Assembly: GCA_044892525.1 (NCBI GenBank)
Contig: CM097885.1
Coordinates: forward strand, 17,672,001 to 17,736,000
Reading direction: 5' to 3'
Source: Schmidtea polychroa
Lineage: Eukaryota
DNA: 64,000 nucleotides
Shown here: piece by piece, positions 25,258 through 54,399 of the stretch
Layout of the letters: each line of letters opens with the position of its first letter
Numbering within the stretch: the first letter of the stretch is position 1
The notes under the pieces: generated by a model
What the model was told of the DNA's origin: nothing
What the model saw: the letters and a program-made list of their open reading frames with translations, nothing else
Databases searched by the model: none
Program-made: the position numbers and the translations under genes

Positions 25258-25565
25258 AGTAGTGTGTATCTATCCCTAACGACCACAAGCCTCCCAGCTG
25301 TTTTCATGTTTTATACCTATTTTTTTCCCGTTTTATACCTATTTTTCCCCCATAAACGTAAAAAAAAAACACTTAAAACCTTAAAAACCTATATCTTTTA
25401 ATTTCTTTATTCCGAAGACATTTTGCTTTCAAAATAAAAACTTAAAAAACAACAAAAATATTAAAAAAACAACACAAAATGTTAATAAAACAGGGAAAAA
25501 AATACTGATAAAACTATGAAAAACGTTTGTCGGCTTGCGGTCGTTAGGGATAGATACACACTACT
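25258..25565. repeat. Left TIR of B, itself bounded by a 34-bp inverted repeat
   Basis: AGTAGTGTGTATCTATCCCTAACGACCACAAGCC ... GGCTTGCGGTCGTTAGGGATAGATACACACTACT. Confidence 0.92.
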
Positions 25566-25567
25566 TG

Positions 25568-25718
25568 CAGGTCGCCAGTTTATCAAGTCGCCAGTTTATC
25601 AAGTCGCCAGTTTATCAAGTCGATAGTTTGTCAAGTCAATGATGCAATCGCTGCGGTCTTGGCAAGTCGACAGCTTGGTAAGTCGACAGCTTGGCAGGTC
25701 GATAGCTTGGCAAGCTGC
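25568..25718. repeat. Subterminal 16-bp tandem repeats
   Basis: GTCGCCAGTTTATCAA x3, then GTCGA(C/T)AG(C/T)TTG variants. Confidence 0.85.
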
Positions 25719-25875
25719 TAGAATATAAATATAAAAAAAATAAAAAAAAAATAAAAATAAAAATAAAAAAATAAAAAAAATAAAAATAAAAAAAAATAAA
25801 AATAAAAATAAAAATAAATATATAAAAATTTAAAATTTAAAAACAACGTATCCAGTAAAAAAATTTTTTCTAAAA

Positions 25876-28800
25876 ATGAATTGTAATATTTGCAATAAAG
25901 TTTTTAAAAATAAAACAGGATTAATTTCTCACTATAAATCGAAAGCTCACTTACTAAAAGAAAATAATCTTAATGACACAAATTCAAAAGTTTGTACTAA
26001 ATGTAAAGGAAGATTTCTACATTCTGGATATAATAAACATTTTGAAAATTGTATCGGGAAAAATAGAGAAATATTTACATGTCCTCATTGTAACTTTTCA
26101 ACAAAACTAAATTTCTATTATTTAAGACATTTAAAAGAATGTAAAAATAAAAAACAAAATTCTGACGTTGAAGAATGTCATTCAGAAGGAGAACCTGATC
26201 ATGTTGAAAGAGAAAAATACAACTGGGATGATTTTAATCATATAGATGAATTTCAATTAAAAATTAATGGACCTGCAACCCCTGGAGAATATATAAGGAG
26301 AAATAAAAAAAATATTAAAAATTCTTTCACTGAAGCTTTAAAAAATTATAAACCAACAAGGTATAATGTTATAAAATATAAAATTACAATCAAAGCAAAA
26401 TATTGGAGAGGACCAGAAGAAAAGACAACTCCTTTAGATGTTGAAATTGGAATACCTTTTAAATATTTATTTTCAACTAGAGGATTTAATAAAAGCATCA
26501 AAGAAATAATTCAAGCAGTAGAAGCAAAACAAGAAGAGGTTGAAAATGAATTAGGAGATTCAAACTTAGTATTCAACTCTTTCCAAACTTTAGTGATTGA
26601 TTATTGGAGAGGATTACCACCTAATCCTAAATCTTATATTCAAACACCCTTTAGATCTAGGGTTGTTATAAATGTACAGAATAAGGATAACAAATGTTTC
26701 ATGTGGTCAATACTTGCATATTTACATCCTCAAGCTGAAAACCCTCAAAGAGTTTCAAAATACAAACAATATGAAAATGAATTAATATTTCCCAAGGGAT
26801 TCACACACCCAATGAAACTAGAAGACATTCCAGAATTTGAAAAACTAAATAATCTTAAACTTAATATTTATGAACATGTTAAAGGATGGGGACATGGAAG
26901 GAAAGATATTATTCCAATTTATATTTCTGATAGTGATAGCACGAGGGAGATATATCTTTTAATCTTGGAAGAAGGAAATAATCAACATTATGTTTTAATA
27001 AAAGACTTTCAAGCTTTTACATCACCAGAGAATCCAACTAGTGGAGGAGGAACATGTAAAAGATGTCTTCATTATTCAACAACTAAAAACTCTATGATTA
27101 AACATGCAAGATTTTGTGAAAAAGATGATCCAGCTTTAATTAGAATGCCTACAGATCCCAGGATGTATTTTAAAAACTTTACAAATTTATTACAAACATT
27201 AGGAGTTGTCTATGGAGACTTTGAATCTATAAATCGTAAACAAGATATAATTATGCAATATTTAAAAATAATAGAAAAATATAAACTCATGGATGAATGG
27301 AAAGCCTCTAAACAGAAGATGAAACCAGAGAGGATGAAAGCCTTTCTAAGAAAAAGAAATAAACCTAATAGTGTTAAAAAAACTAAACAATTACCATCTG
27401 CTTATAAATTATTATTTAAAAGTAATTATAGAATCTAGAGAATATGCATTTCAAGGAACTTCAGAAGATGTTTTAAATCATTTTACTAAAAGTATAAATG
27501 ATCTAGAACATGAAATATTTAAAATATTAAAAACAAAGTATCCTCAAAAAATTTCTAATCAACAACAACAAGAATATGAAAATACTTCCAACTGTTGGAT
27601 GTGTAAACAAGACATTCTTCCTGATGATAAAGTTATAGATCACGATCATTTAAAAAAGGAAAATAATTATCGAGGAGCAGCCCATAGAAATTGTAATCTT
27701 AATTGTCATACTCCTAAATTTGTACCAGTTATATTTCATAATCTTTTTGGTTATGACATACATCTATTTATTAAACATTTAGCAGAAAATGCTAAAAACT
27801 CTTTCAAAGTTATAGGACTTACAAAGGAAAAATATAAATCAGTTGAATATGGAAAATTAAAATTTATAGACTCGTTAAACTTTCTCAAATGTCTCTAGAT
27901 GGAATAGCTAAAACAATGAAAGCAGAAAATTTTAAAATCACTCGAGAATTCTTGGAAAAAAATAATATCCCCCAGAAGAATATCCTACATGCTTAGCAAA
28001 AGGAATATATCCCTATGACTATGTTGATTCATTTGAAAAATATAATGAAACAAAATTACCAGAGAAAGAAGATTTCTATTCCCAACTTCAAAAATCTCAT
28101 ATTACAAATCAAGAATATTCTCGAGCAAATAAAATGTGGGATCTTTTCAACTGTAAAACTTTAGGAGAATATACAAGTATGTACTTATCCCTAGATGTTT
28201 ATATTCTAGCAGATTGCTTTGAAGAATTTACAAAGTCTTTTGTTCTTAAACCTTATAATTATATAACAGCTCCTTCTTTAGCTTGGGATACTATGTTATA
28301 TACCATTTGGACTTCAGATCTTCCAGAATCTGATAAAATTATAGATCTTTTAACCGACCAAGATATGTTTAATCAAATTAAAACAAACATTAGAGGAGGA
28401 GTATCTTCAGTAATGGGGAATAGAGAAATAAAAGCTAGAAATGCAATAACTACTAGCCGAAGAATCTCTAAACACCCTGATCCATATATAAAACTTAACA
28501 ATGAGGAACTAAAAGAAGTATTAGAAGGAATGAAAAATCCTCTATTTATACTTTATATAGATGCAACAGCTTTATATTCAGGAATTATGACTCAATATTT
28601 ACCAATGAGTGACTTTCAAGAAATATACTCCTCTGAAGGACTTCCAGAAATAGAATGCCCTCCAGAAGAATATTTAAAGACTCTTATGAATGAAATACTT
28701 TCAACTCCTAAAGATTCTCCAATAGGATACTTTGTAGAATGTGACCTCGACTACCCAGATGATATAAAATCAGGAACAAGACATTTCCCTTTAGCTCCTA

Positions 28801-30200
28801 TAAGAAGAAAGATTGATATCAACGAACTTTCACTCTGGCAAATCTCACAAGATAAACCTCCAACAATGAAACTTCTTTGTGATCAAACAGATCGAACTTA
28901 TTATCTTTGTCACTATAGACTCCTCCAGTTTTATCTTTCACAAGGAATGATATTAAAAAAAGTTCATAGTGTCATAAGATTTAAACAAGCAGCATTCATG
29001 AAGACTTTCATCGAGGAGAACATTCGTTGTCGAAACATTGCAAAAAGAGAAGGTAACCTTTTAAAAGACAATAATTATAAACTTTTAAACAATTCAGTCT
29101 TTGGGAAGACAATGGAGAATGTTGATAAATATACTCATATTGAACTCCTAACAAATACCCCGAAAGATATAGCCCGTTATAATCGTATGCTAGGAAAGCC
29201 TACATTTAAAAATGCAGAAGTATTTTCTGAAAATCTTACTGCAGTAGAACTACAGAATTTTGAGAAAACATATAATAAACCAATATTTATCGGCTTTGCA
29301 ATTTTAGAACTTTCAAAATTACAAATGTATGAAACATATTATAACATCTTACAACCTATATATGGATCGAATATAGCAATGCATGCAATGGATACAGATT
29401 CAATGTTTTTAACAATAAGAACTCACGATTTACAAAGTGATATCTCTGAAAATCCTATACTTTCAAATTTAATAAATTCATCTGGAGAATTATTTTCGTT
29501 TAAAGATGAAAAACCTTTTACTCCTATAGAAAATGGAATATTTATTCGTGCTAAACAATATTCATATGAAACATTTACAAATCCTAAATTTGAAGAACAT
29601 TCATTTATATTTAAAACCCCAGAAACAGAAGAAAGCATTACACATAGATATCCTATATTCCCTAAAGGACCTGACGGACAGGGAGAAAAACCTGTAAAGG
29701 ATAACAGATGTAAAGGAATTCAGAGATGTGTAGCAAAGAATCTTTCTCATCAAGATTATATAGATACATTGAATCCAAATCATAAAGATAAAATTGATGA
29801 AATACATCAACTTAAAAGTGAAAAGCATGATATTTACTTGATAGAATCCCAAAAAGTATCATTATCAAATTATGATGACAAAAGATTCATACTAAGTGAT
29901 TTAAAGACAACTCTTCCTATAGGAAATAATTTAATACCGATAATAAAAAATCTTGATAGATTGAATCAGTTATATGGTACAAAGATTACTGATCTTGATA
30001 TTTATAATGTTGAAATCATTTATCCTGAGAGAATTGAGAAACCTTTATATTCTCAAGTTTTTAATCCTATATGTTTAGAACTTAAATATTTTAATACTGA
30101 TCCTGAATATATAAAAGGTCTAAGTGATAAAGAATTTAAAGATCATAAAGAGGTTCTAAAAACTAATTTCGAAAAGTTAACATCAGATTCTATCAAATGA
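25876..30200 (+). pseudogene. Protein-primed family B DNA polymerase of B (frameshifted)
   Basis: N-terminal C2H2 fingers, INVQNKDNKCFMWS, VYGDFES, EndoVII-like DHDH...YRGAAHRNCN, FHNLFGYD, YIDATALY, KLLNNSVFGKT, MDTDS, CKGI, YDDKR. Frame breaks near 27430 and 27895-27980. Confidence 0.95.
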
Positions 30201-30274
30201 TTTTTTTCTTTTAAAAATGTCAACAATTAATTTAAGAGTGACAACATCAACCTTTTGAAGGGCAATAAATTTTT

Positions 30275-30895
30275 TTATGTATGATTCTTTAGCCACTTCT
30301 TTCGTTTAATTTTTTTAGAATATTCATTACTTATAACATTAGCACTTTTTAATCTTATAACCTCATTTTTAATATCTTGTATTATTTGATTTGATTTCAT
30401 TATTTCTTCGTCTGTTAGGATTCCATCTTCCAAAGCTTTTAATTGAAATAAAAATAATTTAGAGATTCCTAATTCTATTGATAAACAAACTTCTCTATAT
30501 AAACTTTTCTTTTTAGAAGTATAAGATAATGAAACTATTTCAGTTAAGAAACCATCAGCTACAGAAATACTTCCAAGTATTACAGGTGCAAGAGTAACAA
30601 CTGGTAAAGTTATGGGTAAAATAACTGTTAATATTGCAGATGCAAATCCTAAATAATAACCTATAACTTTTAAAACTGTATTCCCTTTATTCCATCTATT
30701 TTTAATTTTTTTATAATGCTTTAATAAATCTTGTAAATGTAAGGTTTCTGATTTAAATTCTTTTACTCTCATAATTTCAAGTTCTGTGGGAGCCGAGGCC
30801 TTGGAACCTTTGTGACCTTCGGAATAATATCTTGATGACAATTCTGGGTAAATTTTTTCTTCTCTTACTTCTTCCATCTTTTGGACTTTGTCCAT
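30275..30895 (-). CDS. Polinton putative membrane protein
   Basis: Central hydrophobic hairpin and KALEDGILTDEE motif. Conserved in E (61775-62386). Confidence 0.7.
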   Translation of the reverse strand: MDKVQKMEEVREEKIYPELSSRYYSEGHKGSKASAPTELEIMRVKEFKSETLHLQDLLKHYKKIKNRWNKGNTVLKVIGYYLGFASAILTVILPITLPVVTLAPVILGSISVADGFLTEIVSLSYTSKKKSLYREVCLSIELGISKLFLFQLKALEDGILTDEEIMKSNQIIQDIKNEVIRLKSANVISNEYSKKIKRKKWLKNHT

Positions 30896-30903
30896 TTTAA
30901 TAA

Positions 30904-31908
30904 TTAAAAAAATAAGACTTTATTCTTCTGAGCACCATCTGGTACCAATACTCGGATATCAAAAGAAACTCTTGTTGAGAGAATATCTTTATACAATTCT
31001 CTCAATGCTTTACGAACTTCATCAACATCAACCTTTTTTTCATAAAATATTAAATCTATATATTGTACAAGTGTGCTTTTAAAAATAATATTCTTACTTT
31101 TAACTTTATGTAGTCCATGTGAATGAGTATTAACATACCAATCTCCGTGTGGTAAATCATAACTAGTCATTATAACATCACCCTTTTCAAGCTTACTATT
31201 ATAATCACATTTCACAAACCATTTCATTCTTTCATTATCATCATCAAACAAAAAGAAATAAGGATCAATAATCTTTACAACCATAAAAACACCCCATTCT
31301 TTACTGTTTGTTGTTATTAAACTTGGTTCTATAAAATGTTTATATGTATGGGGTAATAATGTTTTATTCTGTTCTAATTCAGCAGCTCTTTTTCTAATAC
31401 TATGTGTGGTGTTAATGTGTGTTCCATGAGACTTTAAATTTGAAATTCTTTTATTAAATGATGTAATCATCTCATTTATTATATTATATATTGTATTAAA
31501 TTTAGTATTCATAATTTGTTTATCTTTAGAATTTAATATGCTAGTATTTAACTTTACAACTTGTTCAGTTAACAGACTTTGTAACTTGTCAAATTTATCA
31601 TTAAATCGTTGTTCGATATTATTAAGCTTTGATTCCATTGAATCAATTTTTGTTGTTAATGAACTTTCAATTCTTGTTGTTGTTAAATCAGTATATTTTT
31701 TAACACCATCTACATATTTCTTATTAACTGCATCGAGATTATCAACTGGAAAAGATAAATCTTTTATCTTGTGTGCATTCATACTTAAATCACTCTTCAT
31801 TGAATCACCTCTTTCATTAATATATTTATTTTCTGTTAAAGTTAATATGTCTTCTGTATCAACCCCAATTGTTCCTCCACCTTTATTACATGGAATATAA
31901 GAACTCAT
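30904..31908 (-). CDS. Putative fibre/spike-like protein
   Basis: GDSMKSDLSMNAHKIKDL..P....DAVNKKYVD (tail-fibre/trimeric-adhesin-like motif), then a coiled coil and a globular C-terminus. Adjacent to penton and conserved in E. Confidence 0.6.
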   Translation of the reverse strand: MSSYIPCNKGGGTIGVDTEDILTLTENKYINERGDSMKSDLSMNAHKIKDLSFPVDNLDAVNKKYVDGVKKYTDLTTTRIESSLTTKIDSMESKLNNIEQRFNDKFDKLQSLLTEQVVKLNTSILNSKDKQIMNTKFNTIYNIINEMITSFNKRISNLKSHGTHINTTHSIRKRAAELEQNKTLLPHTYKHFIEPSLITTNSKEWGVFMVVKIIDPYFFLFDDDNERMKWFVKCDYNSKLEKGDVIMTSYDLPHGDWYVNTHSHGLHKVKSKNIIFKSTLVQYIDLIFYEKKVDVDEVRKALRELYKDILSTRVSFDIRVLVPDGAQKNKVLFF

Positions 31909-32012
31909 TTATTAGGGGATTAAAATACTTAAGAATTCCTCTCCCCCTTTGTACACTTCGTTAGTCCTTCTCCGCCTTCTCCCTTTTAGTCCTTCTCCCC
32001 CTTGTGACTTCC

Positions 32013-32768
32013 TCAGACCTGTTTCAAATGTAAATACATTGAAATCTCTTCTCCATTAAAATCAATCAATTCTCCTTCTTGATTAAGAATTTTAAAATTA
32101 ATATCCATTATATATTTTCTACATAAAGGTAAATAATTTGGAGGATTCATTCTTTCAACTATTTTATATCCCATAGGAACTGTGTTTGAGGGAAAGGAAT
32201 ATAAAACATTTGTTTGTTTACCATTATTATAAGAACCAGTTATACAATCGCAATGAATATTTATTGTGTTTGTATTTATTATTTTTATAATATTTTCTGA
32301 TGTAACTACAGGTGTGATATAATGGTTTCGTGTAAATCCTAAAATTGTTCTAAAGAAACTATTATTTTGAAAATGAATTCCTATATTCTCTAAAGTCATT
32401 ATACATTTTGAAGTTGGTAAATCCATTTTAATTTTAATGACTCCATTTGTTTTTTTAGAAAGTATATTATTTAAATCTTTTATCTCATAAGCTCCGGGTT
32501 CGATTGTTATTATAATCTTATCTGTAGATTTTGGGCTTATATAATAAAATATGTTATTATCTTTAGTTATATTAAAAATAGTATTATAAGCACAAAACCA
32601 TAATAGTCCTAATTCATAATTTAAATTTTGATCTAATTTAATTTAATCTTGAAAGTTTATAGTAAAGTCTGATTCTTTTGAATTTATAGATAAAGTTCTT
32701 GAATATTTATCTGACATTATGTTTACCATTTTTTTTAAATTATCTTCCGGAAGGTTGCGAAGCTCCAT
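32013..32768 (-). pseudogene. Polinton B minor capsid protein (penton) with premature stop
   Basis: Collinear with intact 59967-60731, but FQDSIK has become FQD*IK at ~32644. INIHCDCITGSY...LIDFNGEEI motifs. Confidence 0.88.
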
Positions 32769-32770
32769 TT

Positions 32771-33202
32771 TCATAGTATAGATTTTAAATCATTATAAAT
32801 TTCTTGGATTAAGGAAGTGAAACCTTCTCCTTTGGATTTATTCAATCTATACAAAACATATAAGCTTAAAATACCACATATTTTAGTATTATTAGGTTGA
32901 ACTTGTAAAGAATTAAAAGTGTAGTCCGAGAGATAGTCTTCAACTTCTTTAGTGGGTTTAATCCCAAAAGAATCAAAGTATATAGATTTATTATATATAC
33001 AAACCCAATGAGATCCTTTTTCATTTGAATTTTGATAATTTATAATGATATTCTTTGGAGTGTCTTCTTTCAGACTCGACAATTCATCATTCATTAATAT
33101 TTTTATTTTTAAATTTAAATAATCTGCATAATCTTTTAAATCAAAATTTGTTTTTGTATTTATTCCAAATGTTTTTAAAAAATCTAATATTGAAGGAGTC
33201 AT
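32771..33202 (-). CDS. Adenain-like cysteine protease
   Basis: GSHWVC, YFDSFG and QVQ...CG motifs. Confidence 0.92.
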   Translation of the reverse strand: MTPSILDFLKTFGINTKTNFDLKDYADYLNLKIKILMNDELSSLKEDTPKNIIINYQNSNEKGSHWVCIYNKSIYFDSFGIKPTKEVEDYLSDYTFNSLQVQPNNTKICGILSLYVLYRLNKSKGEGFTSLIQEIYNDLKSIL

Positions 33203-33224
33203 TTTATATTTTATAACTTTGTAT

Positions 33225-34022
33225 TTATAACTTCGTATACTTATTAAATTTATCTTTTGAAATTATTCCTTGTTTTAATAATTCTTTAGAAATCTTTAAA
33301 ATATCAGAATCTAAATTATTATGTCCTGCTTTTTTAGCTGCTAATAGTTTTCTTAATTCAATAAAAAGATTGATTGGGTTTATCTCCTTACCCTTTCCCT
33401 GGCCCTGACCCTGGCCCTCTCCTTCTGTGACAATATAACCCCTTTCATTTTTATTTAAATATTTCTTTAAATCTTGAATATGTTTTGCTTTAGCACTACC
33501 ATGTACTAATTCTATTAAATTTAAATATTTTTTAATTTCTAGAAGATCAACATTCTCTGAGGGATATCCACAAACTAATCCATAAAAATCATCTGTAAAT
33601 TCAAAATCTAGGTGTTTAGTATTATAAACATTTTGTGAATGAATACGTGATTTATTTTCTGAATTTAAATATAACAGAAAGTCATGTTTATTAATTGTTA
33701 TTATTTGATATCCTTCAACATTAATATTAAATGTAGGTTTAATTGTTTTACTTAAACTCACATTAATTTTAGGATCAAGTATAAGAGGTTTTATATTTAA
33801 ATCTCCCAACCATGGTAATTCTTTTAAATCTTGTTTATCTTCCAACTCTTTAAATTTTAAAACTTCTAACTCTTTTATGGCTTTAATTGTTGGTCCTTGT
33901 TGTTGTTGGATTACCTCATTTAATATTATAGATTCAGCGTGTTGAGTTGTATCTTTTTTATTATATTTATCTTGTTCTGATTGTAATTTTTTTAAAAGTG
34001 CTAATCTTTCTTCATATACCAT
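33225..34022 (-). CDS. Conserved Polinton protein of unknown function
   Basis: C-terminal LRKLLAAKKAGHN...ELLKQGII motif typical of Polinton ORFs. Homologue in E. Confidence 0.7.
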   Translation of the reverse strand: MVYEERLALLKKLQSEQDKYNKKDTTQHAESIILNEVIQQQQGPTIKAIKELEVLKFKELEDKQDLKELPWLGDLNIKPLILDPKINVSLSKTIKPTFNINVEGYQIITINKHDFLLYLNSENKSRIHSQNVYNTKHLDFEFTDDFYGLVCGYPSENVDLLEIKKYLNLIELVHGSAKAKHIQDLKKYLNKNERGYIVTEGEGQGQGQGKGKEINPINLFIELRKLLAAKKAGHNNLDSDILKISKELLKQGIISKDKFNKYTKL

Positions 34023-34044
34023 TTTAATGGTATTAAAAATGGTA

Positions 34045-34647
34045 TCATTTTGGTAAAGGATCCGTTGGAAAGGATTTCAAGTATAAACCTTTACCATTTT
34101 TAATTTTACAAAGACATCCATTCTTTAAAGATTTACATATTTTTTTAAAATCATCTTTATCTTTTGAAGATAAAGATTCAGATGATGAAATTTGATTTTT
34201 TAAAAAATCATTTAAACCACGGCCTTTATAAGGATCAAGATAGAGACCCCTTCCCTGAGACTTTTGCAGACTCCCCTCATATGGATTAAGATAGAGACCC
34301 TTTCCAACGGACACTCCCCCTTTAGCTTGATCCTTCTTCATTGAATCGATTTCAGTTTGTAGTTTTTCTTTTTCTAGGTCTGTCTTTTGAGATTCTTTAG
34401 CTTTTTGAACTGTAGTTGCAATTCCTCCAGCTATTCCAGCAGCACCTGATAGTCCGGCAATGATTGCAGGTATTAAAGCAGCTAATGGAAGAATGCCACC
34501 TTCTTTAGCTTCGTGGAGCTTCGCTCTAACTTGTTCTTTTACATGTTTTCCAATAAAATATTTTTTACCAGAGATTACTACTGATTTATTCTTGTCTGAA
34601 TTTATTAATTCTTGCAAAAATTCCTCTGTAGGGTTTTGTGTTGTCAT
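34045..34647 (-). CDS. Polinton core-like precursor protein
   Basis: EGGILPLAALIP...AGIAGGIA hydrophobic segment and repeated G(K/R)GL motifs. Confidence 0.75.
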   Translation of the reverse strand: MTTQNPTEEFLQELINSDKNKSVVISGKKYFIGKHVKEQVRAKLHEAKEGGILPLAALIPAIIAGLSGAAGIAGGIATTVQKAKESQKTDLEKEKLQTEIDSMKKDQAKGGVSVGKGLYLNPYEGSLQKSQGRGLYLDPYKGRGLNDFLKNQISSSESLSSKDKDDFKKICKSLKNGCLCKIKNGKGLYLKSFPTDPLPK

Positions 34648-34662
34648 TTTATAATAAATAAA

Positions 34663-35442
34663 ATGGATATTTGGAAACCAATTTTAAATAGACATAAGAG
34701 TAAATTTAATAATAAAGTATTTCCTGATAATTTTAGATGCTTAATTATTGGATCTTCTGGATGTGGAAAGAATGTTCTTCTTTTGAGGATGTTATTAGAA
34801 GATGGTTTTTTAGATTATAATAATTTAATCTTTTATTCTACAACCATTAACCAACCAGAATTACAACTTTTGAAATGTGGATTTGAAAATAAATTAACTA
34901 AAAAAGCTATAATTGATATTTTTAAAAATCAACATACATATCCCGAAGAGGTTTTTCATCCTTGTGATATGGTTGATTGGTACAAGGAAAAGATTTTAGA
35001 ATCAGATATTAGTAATAAAAATGATTATATAGGGGATGGAATCCAGATCTTATTCTCTAATAAACCTGAAGATGTTTTACATTGTGATTTACTTCCTAAA
35101 GATAAAAAGAATCTAGTTATATTTGATGATGTTGTTAACATGAAAAATCAAGAGATTCAAAAGAGTTACTTTACACGAGGTAGACATAATAATTGTAATG
35201 TTATTTATATATCTCAAACATATTATGCTTTAGATAAAAACTCTATAAGAAATAATTCTAATTGTTTTATATTTTTTAAATTAGACAAGCGTGATAAGAA
35301 TATGATTTATAATGATTTATTTTCAAATGTTGAACCTGATAAGAATATGTTTGATATGTTTGTTGATAATCATTGGAAAGAAAAATATAATTATATTTAT
35401 TTGGATAGAGAAGAAGCTGAAATGTGGAAAAGTTTATTTTAG
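34663..35442 (+). CDS. Polinton B packaging ATPase
   Basis: GSSGCGK, VIFDD, RGRHNN, YISQ and IRNN motifs. Confidence 0.93.
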   Translation: MDIWKPILNRHKSKFNNKVFPDNFRCLIIGSSGCGKNVLLLRMLLEDGFLDYNNLIFYSTTINQPELQLLKCGFENKLTKKAIIDIFKNQHTYPEEVFHPCDMVDWYKEKILESDISNKNDYIGDGIQILFSNKPEDVLHCDLLPKDKKNLVIFDDVVNMKNQEIQKSYFTRGRHNNCNVIYISQTYYALDKNSIRNNSNCFIFFKLDKRDKNMIYNDLFSNVEPDKNMFDMFVDNHWKEKYNYIYLDREEAEMWKSLF

Positions 35443-35453
35443 GGCTTGTCGAC

Positions 35454-36842
35454 TTAAAAATCTGTTTTCTGTAACTCATTATTATAAAATCTACCTAATA
35501 TTTTTTCATTATTTAAATCGATGATACCATATGTTATTGGAGTTGTATGATGTATTTTATTTATAATAAAAATTTCATTTGTCCATTTTGCTGTGAATCC
35601 TTTTTCAAATTTATTTTTATATTTAAATATTCTTACGCGGTCACCAATTTTAAATTTTGGTTTTATAGGGGTTGTATCAACAATAACATCATTTTCAATA
35701 TTTACCACTTTAATGGTTTCAGGCTTCATGGAAGCATTTAAGGGTGTTGATTTTATAGAACTATGTACATCATTATTATATTCATTTACAATCTTTTGTA
35801 ACAATTCATTATTCCATTTTTGTTTTCCAATAGCAGTAAAATATTTCCACATTTTATATTTTAATGTTCTATTTAATCTTTCAACTACGACTGCTTTTCC
35901 TTCGTTTTCTGTTGAATATAATTTAATATCATTTTCATTTAAAAACTTTGTAAAAACTTTGTTATAAAATTCTGTTCCTTTATCACACCATAAATATTTT
36001 GGAATTCTTTGATATTCTTCAAATATATTTTCAAATGCTTCTGTAATTGAATATCCTGTTTTATTTTCTAAACACCTTGCAAAAGCAAATCTTGTATATA
36101 AATCTATTACTGTTAAAATTATTTTATATTTTTCAGGGTCTGATGATTTGGGCATAAAGACTAAATCAGCAGACCATGTTTGATCTTTTTCATGTACTTG
36201 AACTTTTAAATATTTTTTATTTTTTCTAAATTCATGGTGTAATTCGTTGGCATATTTTATTTCTGATTCTGTTGGGTTTTGTAAGGGTTTATTCTCAAAG
36301 AGTTGATTCTCAAGGGATCTTTCAACGTCTGCTTGTTCAATAATCCTTTTATTAGCAACATCTTTTGCTTTTCTAGGAAGTCCTGCTCCTATGAAAATCT
36401 TACCTTTCATTGCTAATTTAACTAGAGCTCTTTGAATCTTTTCTTGGGTTGATGGGTTTTGTATATTATTTAAATCATGTATTAAATTCACATCAGCAAC
36501 ATGTCTATCTCTAAGATCTTCTGAATTGTAAGCAATATCATGTTTTAAAGCTGCTTGGTCGATTCTATTTATTGGTTCTTCTCCTTGTTTAGGATTATTA
36601 TTTTCATCTAATCTAATATCTAATCTTGTTCCTGGCCCAGTATAATTGTGTTTAAATAAATGTCTTTTACCTGGATATTTTTCTGTAGTAAAAGGTTTTA
36701 ATATTGAAGATGTTGTTTTTGAAGATTGTAGATCACCTCCTGTAATATCAACTCTCGTATGTTTTTTAGTTTTGAGATGACTTGCTTTGTGATGTCTTGT
36801 AACTTGACAATTACAACTTTCACATGTCCAATATTTACTCAT
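35454..36842 (-). CDS. Zinc finger - phospholipase A2 - integrase fusion
   Basis: CESC...HLKTKKH. Parvovirus-type PLA2 NYTGPGT...PINRIDQAALKHDIAY...AD. Intact D-D-E core (WSADL, LWCDKG, VVERLNRT). No chromodomain. Confidence 0.92.
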   Translation of the reverse strand: MSKYWTCESCNCQVTRHHKASHLKTKKHTRVDITGGDLQSSKTTSSILKPFTTEKYPGKRHLFKHNYTGPGTRLDIRLDENNNPKQGEEPINRIDQAALKHDIAYNSEDLRDRHVADVNLIHDLNNIQNPSTQEKIQRALVKLAMKGKIFIGAGLPRKAKDVANKRIIEQADVERSLENQLFENKPLQNPTESEIKYANELHHEFRKNKKYLKVQVHEKDQTWSADLVFMPKSSDPEKYKIILTVIDLYTRFAFARCLENKTGYSITEAFENIFEEYQRIPKYLWCDKGTEFYNKVFTKFLNENDIKLYSTENEGKAVVVERLNRTLKYKMWKYFTAIGKQKWNNELLQKIVNEYNNDVHSSIKSTPLNASMKPETIKVVNIENDVIVDTTPIKPKFKIGDRVRIFKYKNKFEKGFTAKWTNEIFIINKIHHTTPITYGIIDLNNEKILGRFYNNELQKTDF

Positions 36843-36871
36843 TTTAAAAGTTTTTTTATGGGGGAATCTAC

Positions 36872-38167
36872 TTATGAAGAATCTCCCCTAACATTTTCAA
36901 TAATTGAAATCTTTCCACCATATAATTTCATTTCTATTTTCTTTTCTTCTAATATTAATGTATATACTTTAGCTTTAAAATTAGAATCCTTTGTTATATG
37001 AAGTGTAACATCAACATTATTTATAGCTAGGCGATCATCTTGGTCTGATACATTTATACAAAATATAGAATATAAATTTTTGAAATCTTCTAAACTTAAT
37101 TGCGGTTCAACTTTGAAATCATAACATGTTTCAATATAATTTAGATATGGGAATATGTTTTCATTATTTTCAATATTAAATTCCATTCTATTTATTGGAT
37201 AATAAGAACTATTTAATTGAATTTGGATTGTTTTTAAATTATCATCTCCAATCTTTTGAATAAATAGATTGTTATTTTTTTGGAAAGATGAATCTACTTC
37301 TTTGAATCCAATCAAGATATATCTTGGTCGGTATGCTAAATTTGCCACCTTTATAGAATATGTTGAACCCTCTGTCATACTAAATTCACTACAGATTCTA
37401 TTTAAATAATTTACATTTATAGACTTGTTGGAATTTAATCTTTCAAGGAGTTTGATTTCAGAATGTGGGTTTAATGTCCATTCAGGTATATGCAATTCAA
37501 GTGTTGATAATTTTAATTTAGCTGTTGTGTCTGCAGCTCCATAGAACAATCTTTTATCACCTTCTACTCTATTACAGATGAGTTCTATAAAAACATTATG
37601 AAGTACACGGTTATAATTTTGAAGGAATCCAAATAAGTGTTTTAATTCAAAATAACCTTCAAATTTTTTCAACTTAAAAAGTTCAACTCTTTTATAGTAA
37701 GCATAATTTATATCTAAACCATCTTTATCTAAATCCCCTTTATTAACATCAGGAATCCAACCTGTTAATTCACCATATTCGTTTTTATAATCACAACCAG
37801 TTAAAATAAAATTTAACATTGTAGAATATACTCCTGGATGCAAAACAGTTTCAATTTCTGATGATCCTAGTTTTAATCTCATGTTGGAGAATAAATTTGG
37901 AAAGAAATTATTTTCTAGGGTTATATCTTTGTTTGCTTCAATTTCGAATTCAATTTTATAATATAATTTGGCATTACAAATATCTATTGGGTTTGATGTT
38001 TGAAGAGATTGAAAAACTATATCACCCCTACGATTTAAGTTTGCAATAGATCCTGAAGTTGGCGAGATTTTTAAAATATCATTTTTCTTGATTTCATGAG
38101 TAAATTCTTTATTATAATCAAGATTTAATTTATTTTTTTCTTGAATTTTAAGATTTATATTATTCAT
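36872..38167 (-). CDS. Polinton B major capsid protein
   Basis: Intact 431-aa ORF with NNFFPNLFS, LKHLFGF, RPRYILIGF and YSIFCINVS motifs, consistent with a Polinton double jelly-roll MCP. Confidence 0.85.
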   Translation of the reverse strand: MNNINLKIQEKNKLNLDYNKEFTHEIKKNDILKISPTSGSIANLNRRGDIVFQSLQTSNPIDICNAKLYYKIEFEIEANKDITLENNFFPNLFSNMRLKLGSSEIETVLHPGVYSTMLNFILTGCDYKNEYGELTGWIPDVNKGDLDKDGLDINYAYYKRVELFKLKKFEGYFELKHLFGFLQNYNRVLHNVFIELICNRVEGDKRLFYGAADTTAKLKLSTLELHIPEWTLNPHSEIKLLERLNSNKSINVNYLNRICSEFSMTEGSTYSIKVANLAYRPRYILIGFKEVDSSFQKNNNLFIQKIGDDNLKTIQIQLNSSYYPINRMEFNIENNENIFPYLNYIETCYDFKVEPQLSLEDFKNLYSIFCINVSDQDDRLAINNVDVTLHITKDSNFKAKVYTLILEEKKIEMKLYGGKISIIENVRGDSS

Positions 38168-38203
38168 TTATATAATAAAAATTTAAAAAATGATAAAAAT
38201 CCG

Positions 38204-38286
38204 AACTCCGATAGCGCAGTGGGCTAGACTGGCACAGTGGTTCAAATGGATAGCGGTTCAAATCCTAACTACGGTTAGTTTTTTTT
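38204..38286 (+). ncRNA. Putative Pol III tRNA-like small RNA, B copy 1
   Basis: A box TAGCGCAGTGG (38212), B box GGTTCAAATCC (38255), T8 terminator. Confidence 0.6.
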
Positions 38287-38436
38287 AACATAAAATAATA
38301 TTAAAAATTTGAAAATAATATTGAAAATGGTGTGGGTATCTTAGATTTATATTTTATTTTATTTATTTTTATTTTATTTTATTTATTTTATTTTATTTTT
38401 TTATTAATTAAAAATTTAAAAAATGATAAAAATCCG

Positions 38437-38519
38437 AACTCCGATAGCGCAGTGGGAATAGACTGGCACAGTGGTTCAAATGCTAGCGGTTCAAATCACG
38501 TCTGAGGTTAGTTTTTTTT
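38437..38519 (+). ncRNA. Putative Pol III tRNA-like small RNA, B copy 2
   Basis: A box at 38445, B box GGTTCAAATCA at 38488, T8. Part of a ~233-bp tandem duplication. Confidence 0.55.
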
Positions 38520-38689
38520 CAACATAAAATAATATTAAAAATTTGAAAATAATATTGAAAATAATTTTTGAAAATAAATATTAAAAAAATATATAGTGTG
38601 GGTATCTTAGGAAATAAATCTTGTTTATTTTATTTATTTATTAATTAATTAATTTTTAAACATAAATATGAAAAAAAAAATATTGAAAC

Positions 38690-39050
38690 GGGTGTGGTGG
38701 CGAACCGGTAATTATCGCCACCAGTCTTTCGAACACCCCCGGATCGATTCTATAATGTGCACATTTATTTCTTGGTTGTTTTCGGACCTCTTTCGGATTC
38801 GCTTTCGAATTCATTTGTACTTTCGAGCAGCACACTTAAAACGCCGATGAAATCGACTTCGTGAGCGAGAAGCGAATAATAAGGTGTGCTGCTATTATCG
38901 AATTGATTCTGATATATGAGTCTGGCCAGCTTGTATATTGGAAGAGATTTGATAAACGAAAGAGGTTGAAATAAAAAAAAAATGATCCGGATCAAAAAAA
39001 ACTGTTGAGAGGACAGTGAAAAAAAAATACCACTGTCCTCCCAGAGCAGT
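38690..39050. other. Conserved GC-richer structured non-coding subterminal region of B
   Basis: Hairpins GGTGGCGA/TCGCCACC, GCAGCACAC/GTGTGCTGC and GAGGACAGTG/CACTGTCCTC. Conserved at 52995-53375 and partly at 48675-48860. Confidence 0.65.
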
Positions 39051-39142
39051 TTTACTATTTTCATAAAATTTTTTATTCTTCAAGATTAAGATTTATAAAA
39101 TTATAAATTAGTCAAATAGCAACTTGCTAGTTGACATCCTCA

Positions 39143-39408
39143 AGTAGTGTGTTTATATCCCTAACGACCGCAAGCCGACAAACGTTTTTCATAGTTTTAT
39201 CAGTATTTTTTTCCCCGTTTTATTAATATTTTTGTTGTTTTTTTTAAGTCTTTATTTTGAAACCAAAATGTCTTCAGAATAAAGAAATTAAAAGATATAG
39301 GTTTTTAGGGGTTTTAAGTGTTTTTTTTTACGTTTATGGGGGAAAAATAGGTATAAAACATGAAAACAGTGGGAGGCTTGTGGTCGTTAGGGATATAAAC
39401 ACACTACT
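39143..39408. repeat. Right TIR of B, itself bounded by a 34-bp inverted repeat
   Basis: AGTAGTGTGTTTATATCCCTAACGACCGCAAGCC ... GGCTTGTGGTCGTTAGGGATATAAACACACTACT. Confidence 0.92.
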
Positions 39409-39414
39409 GATGTG

Positions 39415-40740
39415 ACTCCCGCTGAATATGAGACAGCTCAGAGAATTTGGCTTGAAACTTCATGTACTTCACTTTTTGATTACATGATGGCTTATTTAAA
39501 ACTTGATGTTTTCCTTTTAGCCGATTTTTTCCAGCAATTTAGAGCTAAGTCCATTGCTCATAACCGACTAGAGCCATTAGATTTCTTAGGTATTCCAGGT
39601 ATGTCTTGGAATTCAGCCTTATTAACTTTAAACTCTCCAATTGAGCTCCTCACCGATATGGAGATGTATAACTTTTTCGAGGGCGGTATCCGTGGCGGAC
39701 TAACTTTTGTAAATAAACACTATGTAAAAACAGACCCGGATACTGCTTTGCTTTACATAGATATAAATAATTTATACGGTTGGGCTTTAAGTCAACCATT
39801 ATCTTGCAGTGACTTTGAATGGGTTACTGATGATAATTTATTAAATAATATAATTGTTGAATGCACAACGGTAGATTTAGATCTGCTTAATTATGGTTAT
39901 ACCATAGAAGTATTATATTAACACAAATACGGCGTTACGAGCAGCGTCGGCAAATAAACTTGATAAAAGTTTTTATAGATTATTAAACAACAGTCTTTAC
40001 GGCAAGACTGTTGAAAATCTTAAAAAACGTATTAATTTACGTCTGTGTAATTCTTCACAGAAATTATTAACATTCTGTTCGAAACCGACTTTTTGTAAAT
40101 CCACGAAAATCGATGATGACTTGATTTCGGTTTTATTGAGGAAGGACACAGTGTGTTTGAATAGACCTAGTTACATTGGTCAAACTGTACTAGATTTATC
40201 CAAACTCAGGATGTACGAGCTGCAGTATGAAGAGTTGCAAAAATATCTCGACGAATTCAACTGCGAAATTAATATCGTTGCTGGGGACACAGATTCCTTC
40301 TTCTTGGAAATTAAACATTGTAGTCTTGACATTCTTTTACCTGCGATGATTAGAGATCAATTATTAGATACTTCGAAATATGACCCAAATCATCTTTTAT
40401 ATAATAGGAACCTTGATTCTGTCATTGGTAAATTCAAAGACGAGAATAAAGGGTTATTATATAAAGATTGGGTGTTCTTGAGATCTAAATGTTACAGATT
40501 GATGGGTGATGAGGAAAGTATGAAGGCTAAGGGGATAAGTATGAAAGATACTGGACTCACACATCAGTCGTATCTAGATTGTTATTTAAACGATAAAATA
40601 TACACAGTCCCTCAGTTTAGAATAACATCAAAAAAATCACCAACTTTTTAGTATTAAAAATAATAAAAGAACCTTGGCATGTAGAAATGATAAGCGAAAT
40701 TAGGTGGATAAAAATCAAAGTTTGGCATATGGCCATTATA
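39415..40740 (+). pseudogene. pPolB of A, 3' part
   Basis: Continues PIWKDV|TPAEYE. YLKLDV, GIRGG, YIDINNLYG, LLNNSLYGKT, AGDTDS and KAKG motifs. Internal deletion near 39920 and frameshifts. Confidence 0.92.
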
Positions 40741-47380: not shown

Positions 47381-47992
47381 TTATGAATGAATTCTATTAC
47401 AAAGTAATTCTATGAAAACATTATGGAGTATACGATTATAGTTTTGAAGGAATCCAAATAAATATTTTAATTCAAAATAACCTTCAAATTTTTTAGACTT
47501 GTAAAGTTTAACACGTTTATAATAACCATAATTTGTATCTAAACCATCTTTATCTGTATCACCTTTATTTACATAAGGGATCCAACCTGTTAATTTACCA
47601 TATTCATTTTTGTAATCACAACCAGTCAAAACAAAATTTAACATTGAACAATATACACCTGGATTCAAAATATTTTCAACTTCTGAGGGTCCTAATTTTA
47701 ATCTCATGTTGGAGAAGAAATTTGGGAAGAAATTATTTTCTAGGGTTATATCTTTGTTTTCTTCAATCTCTAATTCAATTTTGTAATATAATTTTGCATT
47801 ACAAATATTTATAAGGTTTGATGTTTGAAGAGATTGAAAAACTATATCACCTGAGCGATTTAAATTTGAAATGGAACCAGAGGTTGGAAAAATTTTAAGT
47901 ACATCATTTTTCTTAATTTCATGAATAAACTGTTTATCATAATCAAGATTTAATTTATTTTTTTCTGAAATCTCGAGATTTATATTGTTCAT
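47381..47992 (-). pseudogene. Truncated MCP of a B-related Polinton relic
   Basis: Aligns to the first ~200 aa of 36872-38167 with many substitutions. Confidence 0.9.
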
Positions 47993-48234
47993 TTTTATAA
48001 TAGAAATTTCAATTTTTTATATTTTTATATTTTTCAATATTTATTAAAATCTTGAGCATTTATTCTCGGGTGTCTATATTTAGAGTATATTAAATTATTA
48101 TTAAAATCTTTAGTGTTAATTCTCGAGTGTCTATGTTTAAAACATATTAAATTATTATTATTAAAATCTCGGGTGTCTATATTTAGAGTGTATTGAATTC
48201 TGATAAAAACTTGGAAGTTTAAATTATTATTTCA

Positions 48235-48526
48235 AGTAGTGGTGAAACTAGTCGCCTTGCCCACCCCTTCCCTATTATGTTAGATCTGTATTTTAATAAA
48301 TTTGTAAGATCTAAAAATCTCGGGTGTCTATGTTTAGAATATATTGAATTTTTAAAATTTCAGGTATTAGTATTTGGATTTATTGAATCTATAAAATCTC
48401 GGGTGTCTGATTTAGAGGATATTAAATTTTGAGAAATATTGAAATATTAAATAATACGTTTTTATTATTCACAAATGTTGCGATTATGGGGTGGGGTGAG
48501 GCAAGGCGACTAGTTTCACCACTACT
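48235..48526. mobile_element. AGTAGT-bounded hairpin cassette (mini Polinton-end-like unit)
   Basis: Perfect 27-bp inverted repeat AGTAGTGGTGAAACTAGTCGCCTTGCC. No TSD found. Confidence 0.75.
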
Positions 48527-51560: not shown

Positions 51561-52632
51561 AAATTTATTTCTTTGTCAAGGTTTTTCGTTTCTGACATAT
51601 TTCACAACTTTGTGTATATTGACACACGATTTTATTTAATTCCTAAATATCGTAATTTATTGATTTTTATTGTACATTTAGTGTATTTTAATTGATTAGT
51701 TGAGATGAAATAATAGCAAATCAAACGAGAAAAGTTTATGTATACTACCTGGATTTTGTCATTATTTCAAAAAATAAGTCTGAGAAATATTAAGAAGAAG
51801 CATTCATTATTTAAACCAGTTTATGCTTTCCATGATTATGAAATGCATTTATTGAAGAAACCAATAGATTATAATTTGATGAAACCTAATGCATTAATGA
51901 AGAAATGCAATAATTATTGGATTGAACAATTTGATGAAGATATTCAAGATGCTATTGGTACATTATTGGCATGTATCAATAAGGACCTTGTGATTTATGA
52001 AAGCGGATCATTTCTAGGTGGACAATCAAGTGAATTTTAAGAAGAAAATAATCAAATACCTTTTAAACCAGATTTTAACCCTTTCCTATCTTGTGTCTAT
52101 AAAAATATGACAAAAAGAAATTAACCATTCTATCCTCTGTCTGTAAAAAAATAACATTATTTCTAAATAGTTTATTTCCCATGCACTGTCAATTATATTA
52201 TAACCAACTGTTATGACCAAAAACTAAAAAAAAATAATTTTTTGAAAATTTTTTAAAATTTTATTAGGATTGGAAGGGCTGGACACCTAAAATAAACAAG
52301 ATAGGAAAGGGTTAAATGGAATTTGAAAATATGTATCCAAGGTTTCAAAACAGCACCAAGTGCAGTTAAATATTACTAGTATGGAACATTATAAGTTGAA
52401 AATTATAAACAACGATTAATGTTAATATTGTTCAGTTTGTTTAATAAAAGTTTTACAAAATCTTAATTTTATGTTGTTATAAAAATACTTTGAAATTTAA
52501 AATTCAAATTATTTATTCAATATAAGTTTCATTGGTTTCATTAATGTTGACAAATATTAATTACCGAGGACGAGTCCATTTGAAAATTATACGAAATATG
52601 AGATATCCATCAGGTAAACCTCAACAAAATTT

Positions 52633-52873: not shown

Positions 52874-52994
52874 TGGTCTTAAGGATTTAATGTTATAAGA
52901 ATATCAGATTACCTAATTCATAATGATCTAGGTCGCCTGATCACCTTAAGGTTTTGAAAGTTTTAAAAATAAAAAATTTTATGAAAATAGTAAA

Positions 52995-53375
52995 ACTGCT
53001 CTGAGGGGACAGTGGTATTTTTTTTTTTTTTTTTTTTTTTCACTGTCCCCTCAACAGTTTTTTTTTGATCCGGATCATTTTTTTTTTATTTATCAACCTC
53101 TTTCGTTTATCAAATCTCTTCCAATATACAAGCTGGCCAGACTCATACATCAGAATCAATCCGATAATAGCAGCACGCCTTATTATTCGCTTCTCGCTCA
53201 CGAAGTCGATTTCAACGGCGTTTTAAGTGTGCTGCTCGAAAGTACAAATGAATTCGAAAGCGAATCCGAAAGAGGTCCGAAAACAACTGAGAAATAAATG
53301 TGCACATTACCGGGATCGATCCGGGGGTGTTCGAAAGACAGGTGGCGATAATTACCGGTTCGCCACCATCACCCG
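52995..53375. other. Conserved structured non-coding subterminal region of E
   Basis: Reverse complement of 38690-39050 with few changes. Confidence 0.65.
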
Positions 53376-53529: not shown

Positions 53530-53612
53530 AAAAAAAAACTAACCTCAGATGTGATTTGAACCACTATCCATTTGAACCACTGTGCCAGTCTATTCCCACT
53601 GCGCCATCAAGG
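53530..53612 (-). ncRNA. Putative Pol III tRNA-like small RNA, E copy 1
   Basis: A box TGGCGCAGTGG, B box GGTTCAAATCA and T-run. Orthologue of the B copies. Confidence 0.55.
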
Positions 53613-53860
53613 TTTGAATTTTTGTCATTTTTTAGACTATAAATAATCGATTCAAGTTCTTTAACTCTTTCCTGTAATTGTTTCATTTTCTTCAATCTTA
53701 TATCAGCAACATCTACAGCCTTCATATAAAAATGTCGATACTTTTCATTATCTACCATCAACTCTTTGATGTATTCTAATGGTTCTTCTTCTCTTCTTTT
53801 CATTCTCTTATGTTTAACTTCATTCAATTCATTTCTCATTCTTTCTTTTAACTCATCCAT
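53564..53860 (-). CDS. Small coiled-coil protein present in E but not B
   Basis: 98-aa charged helical ORF with an AAAATG start. Confidence 0.55.
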   Translation of the reverse strand: MDELKERMRNELNEVKHKRMKRREEEPLEYIKELMVDNEKYRHFYMKAVDVADIRLKKMKQLQERVKELESIIYSLKNDKNSNLDGAVGIDWHSGSNG

Positions 53861-54017: not shown

Positions 54018-54099
54018 AAAAAAAATTGACCGAAATGGGATTTGAACCCATTGGTATTGGCAATGCAGTCGAGTGCTATTACCACTAAGCTATTAGAGC
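54018..54099 (-). ncRNA. Putative Pol III tRNA-derived small RNA, E copy 2 (tRNA-Cys-like 5' half)
   Basis: TAGCTTAGTGGTAATAGCACTCGACTGCA, perfect T arm ATGGG-TTCAAAT-CCCAT, T8. Acceptor and anticodon stems do not pair. Confidence 0.65.
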
Positions 54100-54261: not shown

Positions 54262-54343
54262 AAAAAAATTGACCAAAATTGAAAATTGAACCCGGTACTC
54301 CCGGTGATAAAATTGAAGCCTATTCCCACTCCGCTATAATGGC
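54262..54343 (-). ncRNA. Putative Pol III tRNA-like small RNA, E copy 3
   Basis: A box TAGCGGAGTGG, weak B box GGTTCAATT, and the same GGTCAATTTTTTT end as copy 2. Confidence 0.45.
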
Positions 54344-54399
54344 TTACATAATATATTTAATTAATCCTATTGTGTGTGTGTAAATTTTAATATATAAAA

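What the first reader, a model, noticed from the sequence alone, without database searches (positions are those of the whole stretch)
38204..38519. Polinton B carries tandem Pol III tRNA-like small RNA units (VA-RNA-like)
Seen: two ~80-nt GC-richer units with A box, B box and T8 terminator at tRNA-like spacing, divergent from the MCP gene, with no full cloverleaf. Established: adenovirus VA RNAs and murine gammaherpesvirus tRNA-like RNAs are Pol III transcripts that counter host defence or yield miRNAs. Inference: Polinton-encoded small RNAs, or TFIIIC-bound insulators shielding the integrated element. I am not aware of this being described for Polintons.
Basis: partly seen in the sequence, partly recalled or inferred. 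Interest (0 to 1): 0.75.

Follow-up and report, generated by a model that had tools for sequence, protein, structure and literature searches.

The report
Polinton tRNA-like Pol III RNA cassette
A virus-like Polinton transposon carries, right beside its capsid gene, two worn-down tRNA look-alikes that keep the start and stop signals of RNA polymerase III, followed by a longer stretch predicted to fold strongly, so it likely makes its own small RNAs, although no transcript has been shown.

Summary
Observation confirmed. Two 74-nt units (38205-38286, 38438-38519; a 233-bp tandem duplication) have an A box, a B box and a T8 run at tRNA positions but no cloverleaf. They lie in a 14.15-kb Polinton with a 6-bp target duplication, 38 nt from the capsid gene start and divergent from it. 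A sister Polinton in the window has three such units at the same place; one scores as tRNA in Rfam. Five units occur in 64 kb, none in 200 shuffles. Across units the boxes, length, end pairing and terminator are kept; the middle is not. 'VA-RNA-like' does not fit the short units (unstructured). Best reading: an element-borne, tRNA-derived Pol III cassette whose short units likely work by holding Pol III factors beside the capsid promoter, with the long RNA as candidate effector. Transcription and genome-wide distribution are untested. This scan already noted the same kind of cassette elsewhere in this genome and in others.

The parts
38205..38286 (+). Short unit alpha-1: A box 38212-38222, B box 38255-38265, T8 terminator 38279-38286; 4 of 7 acceptor-register pairs, other arms broken
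38438..38519 (+). Short unit alpha-2, second copy of a 233-bp tandem duplication: A box 38445-38455, B box from 38488, T8 38512-38519; 5 of 7 acceptor-register pairs
   Evidence: (D18)
38691..39074 (+). Long unit delta: A-box-like site at 38698 (one mismatch to TRGYNNARNNG), B-box core at 38742, T4 at 38779, first run of 5 or more T at 39069; predicted multi-hairpin fold
38895..38955 (+). 61-nt hairpin inside delta (10 bp, 2x2 loop, 15 bp, 7-nt loop), pre-miRNA sized
   Evidence: z -4.86
38998..39053 (+). 3' hairpin of delta, with one two-sided pair change between elements B and C
   Evidence: (z -6.08)
36872..38167 (-). Double-jelly-roll major capsid gene of element B; start codon 38 nt from alpha-1
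25258..39408 (.). Polinton B: ends AGTAGT/ACTACT, target duplication GATGTG on both sides, terminal inverted repeats 25258-25567 and 39141-39408; protein-primed polymerase B in pieces, A32 ATPase, PLA2-like domain plus rve integrase
54262..54343 (-). Unit beta of sister element C, 57 nt from its capsid start codon; has an internal T4
54018..54099 (-). Unit gamma of element C: Rfam tRNA match, intact T arm, GCA at the anticodon position, broken anticodon stem
53530..53613 (-). Alpha unit of element C (single copy); 6 of 7 acceptor-register pairs; overlapped by the end of a 98-codon ORF (53564-53860)
52970..53372 (-). Delta unit of element C; similarity to B ends just after its T run

Best explanation
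The two units are degenerate tRNA-derived genes of a Polinton's own non-coding cassette; they keep the A box, B box and terminator, are likely transcribed by host RNA polymerase III into short uncharged RNAs, and likely work mainly by holding Pol III factors beside the capsid promoter, while the adjacent 380-nt unit is the predicted RNA-level effector. Shown: position in the element, boxes, spacing, terminator, loss of the cloverleaf, paralogues in a sister element, tRNA ancestry of one paralogue, and strong predicted folding of the long unit. From established knowledge: TFIIIC binds A and B boxes and places TFIIIB upstream, and tRNA genes can block heterochromatin spread (PMC12409998, passages). 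Inferred: transcription; that TFIIIB would sit over the capsid gene's 5' flank and keep it open or tune it; that the long RNA feeds or jams the host's RNA-silencing machinery as TMERs and VA RNAs do.
For: 5 of 5 short units in the window lie between a capsid start codon and the element end, against none in 200 shuffles. All five have the T run 74-75 nt after position 1. Over three lineages (alpha, beta, gamma) 16 of 23 box columns are invariant, against 16 of 52 other columns and 2 of 26 in the middle (partly circular, since the boxes were the search key). End pairing peaks in the tRNA acceptor register: 25 of 35 pairs against 7-19 in eight slid registers. Gamma scores 32.4 bits as tRNA, above the gathering score of 29. 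Beta and gamma share 3' flanks (3 of 1000 shuffles as good), so units multiplied inside the element. A different unit is first in B (alpha, 38 nt from the ATG) and in C (beta, 57 nt), both divergent from the capsid gene. Delta folds at z -6.8 to -8.2 in B and -6.9 to -9.7 in C; ten control windows of B range from +1.7 to -3.4. It folds better on the strand of the boxes, and in its strong hairpins B and C differ by one two-sided change and two A-U to G-U changes.
Against: No transcript or occupancy data. Only two elements with units were available, and their capsid genes are 97% alike (1255 of 1296), so depth of conservation is small. The third copy in the window (capsid fragment 47381-47992) has no short unit and only a shortened delta with a decayed B box. 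0 of 36 metagenome loci with capsid relatives had a unit; in 17 of the 18 with 400 nt or more upstream another ORF abuts the capsid gene, so this layout is not general. Alpha-1 and alpha-2 differ more inside the unit (8 of 72) than in the flanks (1 of 70). Of 16 B-to-C substitutions in delta, 6 break a predicted pair: 3 come from a reshuffled 5' end, 2 are in weak helices and 1 is in a strong helix. The pattern that found delta's boxes was widened after I saw them. Beta has an internal T4 that could end its transcript early.
Confidence: 0.5

Rival explanations
1. The short RNAs themselves are the effectors: abundant 5'-triphosphate, oligo-U-ended tRNA mimics that act as decoys for RNA-binding or silencing proteins, or as sources of tRNA-fragment-like guides.
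For: End pairing is kept in the acceptor register, which matters for an RNA and not for a DNA site. 6 of 9 differences between alpha-1 and alpha-2 fall in one 8-nt block between the B box and the 3' end (0 of 20000 random placements), as if the 3' part were swapped or diversified. A single MHV68 tRNA-like RNA has an in vivo effect without miRNAs (PMC4337559, passages).
Against: No conserved fold (z near 0 for both B units; weak consensus fold of -5 kcal/mol). The middle 26 columns are almost unconstrained. The alpha T arm has only 2 of 5 pairs, a poor tRNA mimic.
Confidence: 0.2
2. Captured host tRNA genes that once served as translation cargo, as in other polinton-like viruses, now decaying and duplicated or deleted by drift.
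For: Intact tRNA genes are known in PLVs and virophages. Gamma still looks like tRNA-Cys. Copy number and type differ between close sisters, and one copy has none.
Against: Neutral decay should hit boxes, terminator position and end stem as much as the anticodon region; it did not in three lineages.
Confidence: 0.2
3. Heads of a dispersed tRNA-derived SINE that landed in the Polinton by chance.
For: SINE heads also keep A and B boxes while losing the cloverleaf (PMC12498455, passages). The genome-wide test could not be run.
Against: A strong T run follows the head directly, with no body, A tail or target duplication seen in the sequence. All five units are in the same Polinton segment and a profile search finds no other copy in the window. 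Alpha shares both flanks between B and C.
Confidence: 0.06
4. The signals act at DNA or protein level only: alpha is held by overlap with a small ORF, and delta's hairpins fold in single-stranded DNA during replication.
For: In C a 98-codon ORF runs into alpha. Delta lies 70 nt from the terminal repeat, and its reverse strand also folds well (z -5.2 and -3.4).
Against: The ORF is absent in B and has no convincing Pfam match; beta and gamma have no ORF. Delta begins at an A box, ends at a T run, and its one-sided changes keep pairs only as G-U on the sense strand.
Confidence: 0.04

Closest known systems
Murine gammaherpesvirus 68 vtRNAs/TMERs (PMC4337559 and PMC8223928, passages)
   Same: Cluster of tRNA-like Pol III type 2 units near one end of a DNA virus genome; not charged; an alternative terminator after the tRNA-like part followed by stem-loops, which is the predicted layout of delta.
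   Different: The two short units stop at T8 with no hairpin behind them and have lost the cloverleaf; delta's head is not a cloverleaf either; no sequence link was tested; host is a different animal and the element is integrated; no expression shown.
tRNA genes of polinton-like viruses, virophages and MELD viruses (PMC12220804, PMC6905037, PMC8502044, passages)
   Same: tRNA-derived cargo in the same broad virus group; gamma still scores as tRNA.
   Different: Those were called by ARAGORN or Rfam and read as codon supply; the units here fail ARAGORN, have broken anticodon stems and keep mainly promoter, length, end stem and terminator.
Adenovirus VA RNA I/II (abstract starts of PMC6599070 and PMC3643585; Rfam RF00102)
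   Same: Internal A/B-box promoter and T-run terminator; tandem genes in a protein-primed DNA virus lineage.
   Different: VA RNA is a highly structured dsRNA mimic of about 160 nt (length recalled); the short units are 74 nt and unstructured; no VA family hit. Delta is structured but about 380 nt.
tRNA-gene and ETC chromatin barriers (PMC12409998, passages)
   Same: TFIIIC-binding B boxes at a border that would gain from a barrier or open chromatin.
   Different: ETC sites lack TFIIIB and Pol III; these units keep an A box and a terminator, so they look like full genes. Here they travel inside a mobile element.
Bovine leukaemia virus Pol III pre-miRNA cluster (PMC12498455, passages)
   Same: An integrated virus with a cluster of type 2 Pol III units and hairpins.
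   Different: BLV B boxes lie beyond the terminator; here they are internal at tRNA spacing.

Membership tests
Pol III type 2 gene | A box TRGYNNARNNG and B box GGTTCRANYCY / core GWTCRANNC (PMC12498455) | tested here: met
   Both B units match the A box fully and the B-box core; alpha-1 matches the full B box. Delta has one A-box mismatch.
Pol III type 2 gene | tRNA-like box spacing and an oligo-T terminator | tested here: met
   44-45 nt from T8 to the B-box core in 7 of 7 sites; T run at +74 or +75 in the 5 short units.
Pol III type 2 gene | Pol III occupancy and transcript | not testable with these tools
   No RNA or ChIP data were obtained.
Functional tRNA gene | Cloverleaf with paired acceptor, D, anticodon and T arms | tested here: not met
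   ARAGORN 0; no Rfam tRNA hit for the two B units; T arm 2 of 5 pairs, anticodon stem at most 3 of 5. Gamma passes Rfam's score but has a broken anticodon stem.
Adenovirus VA RNA | Highly structured dsRNA-mimic fold, Rfam VA family | tested here: not met
   Short units z -0.08 and +0.66; no VA family among matches up to E 10 for 38000-39100, which includes delta.
Adenovirus VA RNA | Binds PKR, Exportin-5 or Dicer | not testable with these tools
   Needs experiments.
Gammaherpesvirus TMER | tRNA-like 5' module followed, past a weak terminator, by hairpins in one Pol III transcript | tested here: inconclusive
   Not met for the two short units (T8 follows directly). Layout met for delta: boxes, T4 at +88, hairpins, T6 at +378, but its head is not a cloverleaf (z -0.40).
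Gammaherpesvirus TMER | Yields miRNAs | not testable with these tools
   Only a pre-miRNA-sized hairpin is predicted.
tRNA-derived SINE | Body and 3' tail after the head, own target duplication (features recalled) | tested here: not met
   T8 directly after the head, none of these seen by reading the sequence; flanks shared between B and C.
tRNA-derived SINE | Dispersed copies outside the host element | tested here: inconclusive
   None in the 64-kb window; no whole genome was held.
Polinton / adintovirus-type element | Terminal inverted repeats, 6-bp target duplication, polymerase B, rve integrase, packaging ATPase, double-jelly-roll capsid | tested here: met
   The PLA2-like domain is typical of Alpha-class adintovirus modules (PMC8502044, passage).
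Polinton / adintovirus-type element | Maturation protease and minor capsid | tested here: inconclusive
   Candidate ORFs 32771-33202 and 32013-32426 had no relevant Pfam match; the first also had no relevant PDB match.

The most novel reading that the evidence does not exclude
Animal Polintons run a TMER-like Pol III programme: an expanding and contracting array of tRNA-derived genes plus a 380-nt tRNA-headed hairpin RNA that is cut into guide RNAs or jams Dicer, with Pol III factors parked on the capsid promoter. This would be a counter-silencing system that helps explain how these elements persist, and a parallel to or forerunner of adenovirus VA RNA in the same virus lineage.
Probability: 0.25. 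Interest if true: 0.8.

Novelty: new variant of a known kind. Interest (0 to 1): 0.55.

Why it matters
Polintons are annotated almost only by their proteins, and tRNA callers miss these units, so a non-coding layer may have been overlooked. If the cassette is transcribed, it gives a concrete, testable route by which an integrated virus-like element resists host silencing, through chromatin or through RNA. It also offers a model for how tRNA genes turn into viral Pol III RNAs such as TMERs and VA RNAs: gamma is still tRNA-like, alpha keeps little beyond the promoter and ends, and delta has gained hairpins.

Tried and rejected
Whole genome: none held, so copy number and the SINE test stay open. 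Sequencing runs: 20 of 24 listed runs hold part of the stretch, no RNA holder listed; no read-level result was obtained, so expression is open. Viral contigs: no capsid relatives and no match to the alpha pattern. Parent tRNA of alpha: a resemblance to eukaryotic tRNA-Trp is recalled only; the tests did not support it (0 hits; 7 of 100 loci had the motif in a tRNA, of six isotypes, none Trp; no phage match), so the parent is unknown. The gamma pattern hit tRNA-Cys in 6 of 6 loci, but it contained the anticodon, so this is partly circular. ARAGORN at a lowered threshold gave 34 calls in the window, mostly noise, with gamma and beta among them and neither B unit; a low-score call in L023 had no clear boxes and was dropped. 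Rfam gave no family above its gathering score for delta. One wide-scan hit in L004 lies inside an ORF and was dropped. Look-ups of earlier notes by sequence found nothing for the capsid, the short units or delta. The 98-codon ORF has no convincing match. Functional tRNA, strict VA RNA and ETC-only site were considered and rejected as memberships.

Full report
Observation. The two units are as described. Each has an A box (38212, 38445), a B box 43 nt further on (38255, 38488) and eight T (38279-38286, 38512-38519). Counted from 7 nt before the A box, where a tRNA would start, each is 74 nt up to the T run. They are two copies of a 233-bp tandem duplication. ARAGORN finds no gene in the window. 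Rfam finds no tRNA or VA match in 38000-39100 at E up to 10. The two units fold no better than shuffles (z -0.08 and +0.66). In tRNA register the T arm has 2 of 5 pairs and the anticodon stem at most 3 of 5, while the acceptor stem keeps 4 and 5 of 7. A scan for A box, B box and T5 finds 5 sites in the window and none in any of 200 block-wise dinucleotide shuffles.

The element. The units lie in a Polinton of 14,151 bp (25258-39408). It has AGTAGT/ACTACT ends, the target duplication GATGTG on both sides and terminal inverted repeats of about 300 bp (83% alike). Pfam finds a double-jelly-roll capsid, an rve integrase with a PLA2-like domain, an A32 ATPase and polymerase B, the last in several ORFs. 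The PLA2-like domain is typical of Alpha-class adintovirus modules (PMC8502044, passage). Protease and minor capsid were not confirmed. The host is not identified. The 27% G+C and Atlas clusters rich in eukaryotes fit an AT-rich invertebrate, which is inference.

Sister copies. Element C (capsid 54400-55692; 1255 of 1296 nt identical) has three short units at the same place: beta, gamma and one alpha. Gamma scores 32.4 bits as tRNA against a gathering score of 29, with an intact T arm, GCA at the anticodon position and a broken anticodon stem. A pattern from it hit tRNA-Cys in 6 of 6 viral loci, partly by construction. Beta and gamma share downstream flank (3 of 1000 shuffles score as well), so they likely arose by an older duplication inside the element. 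Relative to C, B lacks beta, gamma and most of a 98-codon ORF and has alpha twice. In both elements the first unit starts close to the capsid start codon and points away from it: 38 nt in B, 57 nt in C. A third, truncated copy (capsid piece 47381-47992) has no short unit. The parent tRNA of alpha was not found.

What is conserved. Across alpha, beta and gamma, 16 of 23 box columns are invariant, against 16 of 52 other columns (Fisher p 0.002) and 2 of 26 middle columns; the boxes were the search key, so this is partly circular. Two features were not fixed by the search. End pairing peaks in the acceptor register, 25 of 35 pairs against 7 to 19 in eight slid registers; three of the five units are close kin, so these are three lineages, not five. 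Against simple purifying selection, alpha-1 and alpha-2 differ at 8 of 72 unit positions but 1 of 70 flank positions. [quoted passage not shown]

A third unit type. Directly downstream, 38691-39074 has an A-box-like site (38698, one mismatch to the published consensus in PMC12498455, passage) and a B-box core 44 nt on. A T4 lies at +88 and the first run of five or more T at +378. The widened pattern, chosen after I saw this site, finds 7 sites in the window, all between a capsid start and an element end; shuffles give 0.145 on average, 27 of 200 give one or more, and none more than 2. The stretch folds at z -8.2 in B and -9.7 in C; my own run with fewer shuffles gave -6.8 and -6.9, against -5.2 and -3.4 for the reverse strands and +1.7 to -3.4 for ten control windows. 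The fold has long-range helices, a 61-nt pre-miRNA-sized hairpin (38895-38955; z -4.86) and a 3' hairpin. B and C differ at 16 positions: 2 form one two-sided pair change, 2 turn A-U into G-U, 6 are unpaired, and 6 break a predicted pair (3 at a reshuffled 5' end, 2 in weak helices, 1 in a strong helix). Similarity between B and C ends just after the final T run. The truncated third copy keeps the 5' hairpin region and parts of the rest, with a decayed B box. No Rfam family reaches its gathering score here. Earlier scan notes, read, mention a folded RNA candidate beside such units elsewhere in this genome; I had folded the 3' hairpin before that, and the boxes of delta were found here.

Relatives elsewhere. 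39 capsid homologues were found, and 36 metagenome loci with 19-52% identity were fetched. None had a unit by motif scan or profile. In 17 of the 18 loci with 400 nt or more upstream, another ORF abuts the capsid gene. So the layout is not general, and these short contigs mostly do not show the element ends. Viral contigs gave nothing. No whole genome was held, so distribution outside Polintons was tested only within the window.

Mechanism. TFIIIC binds the B and A boxes and positions TFIIIB upstream, and tRNA genes can act as barriers to heterochromatin (PMC12409998, passages). The short units would give RNAs of about 78 nt ending in oligo-U that cannot be charged. What is kept (promoter, length, closing stem, terminator) and what is free (the middle) fit selection for being transcribed more than for what the RNA says. 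TFIIIB covers roughly 40 bp upstream of the start (recalled), which in B is the capsid gene's 5' flank. Delta has the layout of an MHV68 TMER, a tRNA-type head, a weak terminator and then stem-loops (PMC4337559, passages), and is the better candidate for an RNA that feeds or jams silencing. All functional steps are inferred. Odds: this reading 0.5, short RNAs as effectors 0.2, decaying tRNA cargo 0.2, SINE heads 0.06, DNA or protein-level constraint 0.04.

Known and new. Intact tRNA genes are reported for polinton-like viruses (558 hits in about 8300 genomes; PMC12220804, passages), virophages (PMC6905037, passages) and some MELD viruses (PMC8502044, figure legend). tRNA-like Pol III RNAs are known from gammaherpesviruses, and VA RNAs from adenoviruses (abstract starts only). 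Six searches of the open-access library listed no paper whose title or abstract start describes degenerate Pol III units or TMER-like RNAs in Polintons; most listed papers were not opened, subscription journals and Repbase are not covered, and I did not read the supplementary ncRNA tables of PMC12220804 or the maps of PMC8502044, which may bear on this. The scan has noted the same kind of cassette three times in this genome and related cases in others; these are unchecked notes, not support.

Verdict. A real feature and a new variant of a known kind: virus-borne, tRNA-derived Pol III genes, here degenerate and clustered with a structured long unit in a Polinton. Interest 0.55; 0.8 if the counter-silencing reading (probability 0.25) holds.

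Noticed in passing
window 25258-25567 and 39141-39408: Each terminal repeat of element B has its own inverted ends of about 70-90 bp, like a small element in itself; similar self-inverted units lie at 48235-48526 and near 52632-52871.
   Followed up: no
window 23565-25106 and 39484-40651: Element B appears to be inserted into the polymerase gene of another Polinton, whose pieces flank it.
   Followed up: partly
window 38230-38249 and 38464-38482: The middle of alpha holds a second A-box match fused to a near-B-box, like an internal duplication of promoter motifs.
   Followed up: no
window 53564-53860 (minus): A 98-codon, charged, likely coiled-coil ORF between gamma and alpha in element C runs into the alpha unit; B keeps only its last few codons upstream of alpha. 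No convincing Pfam match.
   Followed up: partly
window 9546-10010 (minus): A short TBP-domain ORF lies head to head with an A32-like ATPase in another Polinton-like gene set; earlier scan notes cover this.
   Followed up: no
L003 2810-2890 (minus): A relative with 51% capsid identity has a long hairpin (z -6.4) followed by T8 in a non-coding gap; no clear A/B boxes.
   Followed up: partly
window 48064-48455: In the truncated third copy, short CTCGGGTGTCTAT-type repeats stand where B and C have the Pol III units.
   Followed up: no
window 38165-38175, 54390-54402, 47990-48000: All three capsid genes have a TATA-like run directly before the ATG.
   Followed up: no
window 14889-15290 and 20235-20636: A perfect 402-nt inverted repeat pair bounds an unexamined 5.7-kb element.
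   Followed up: no
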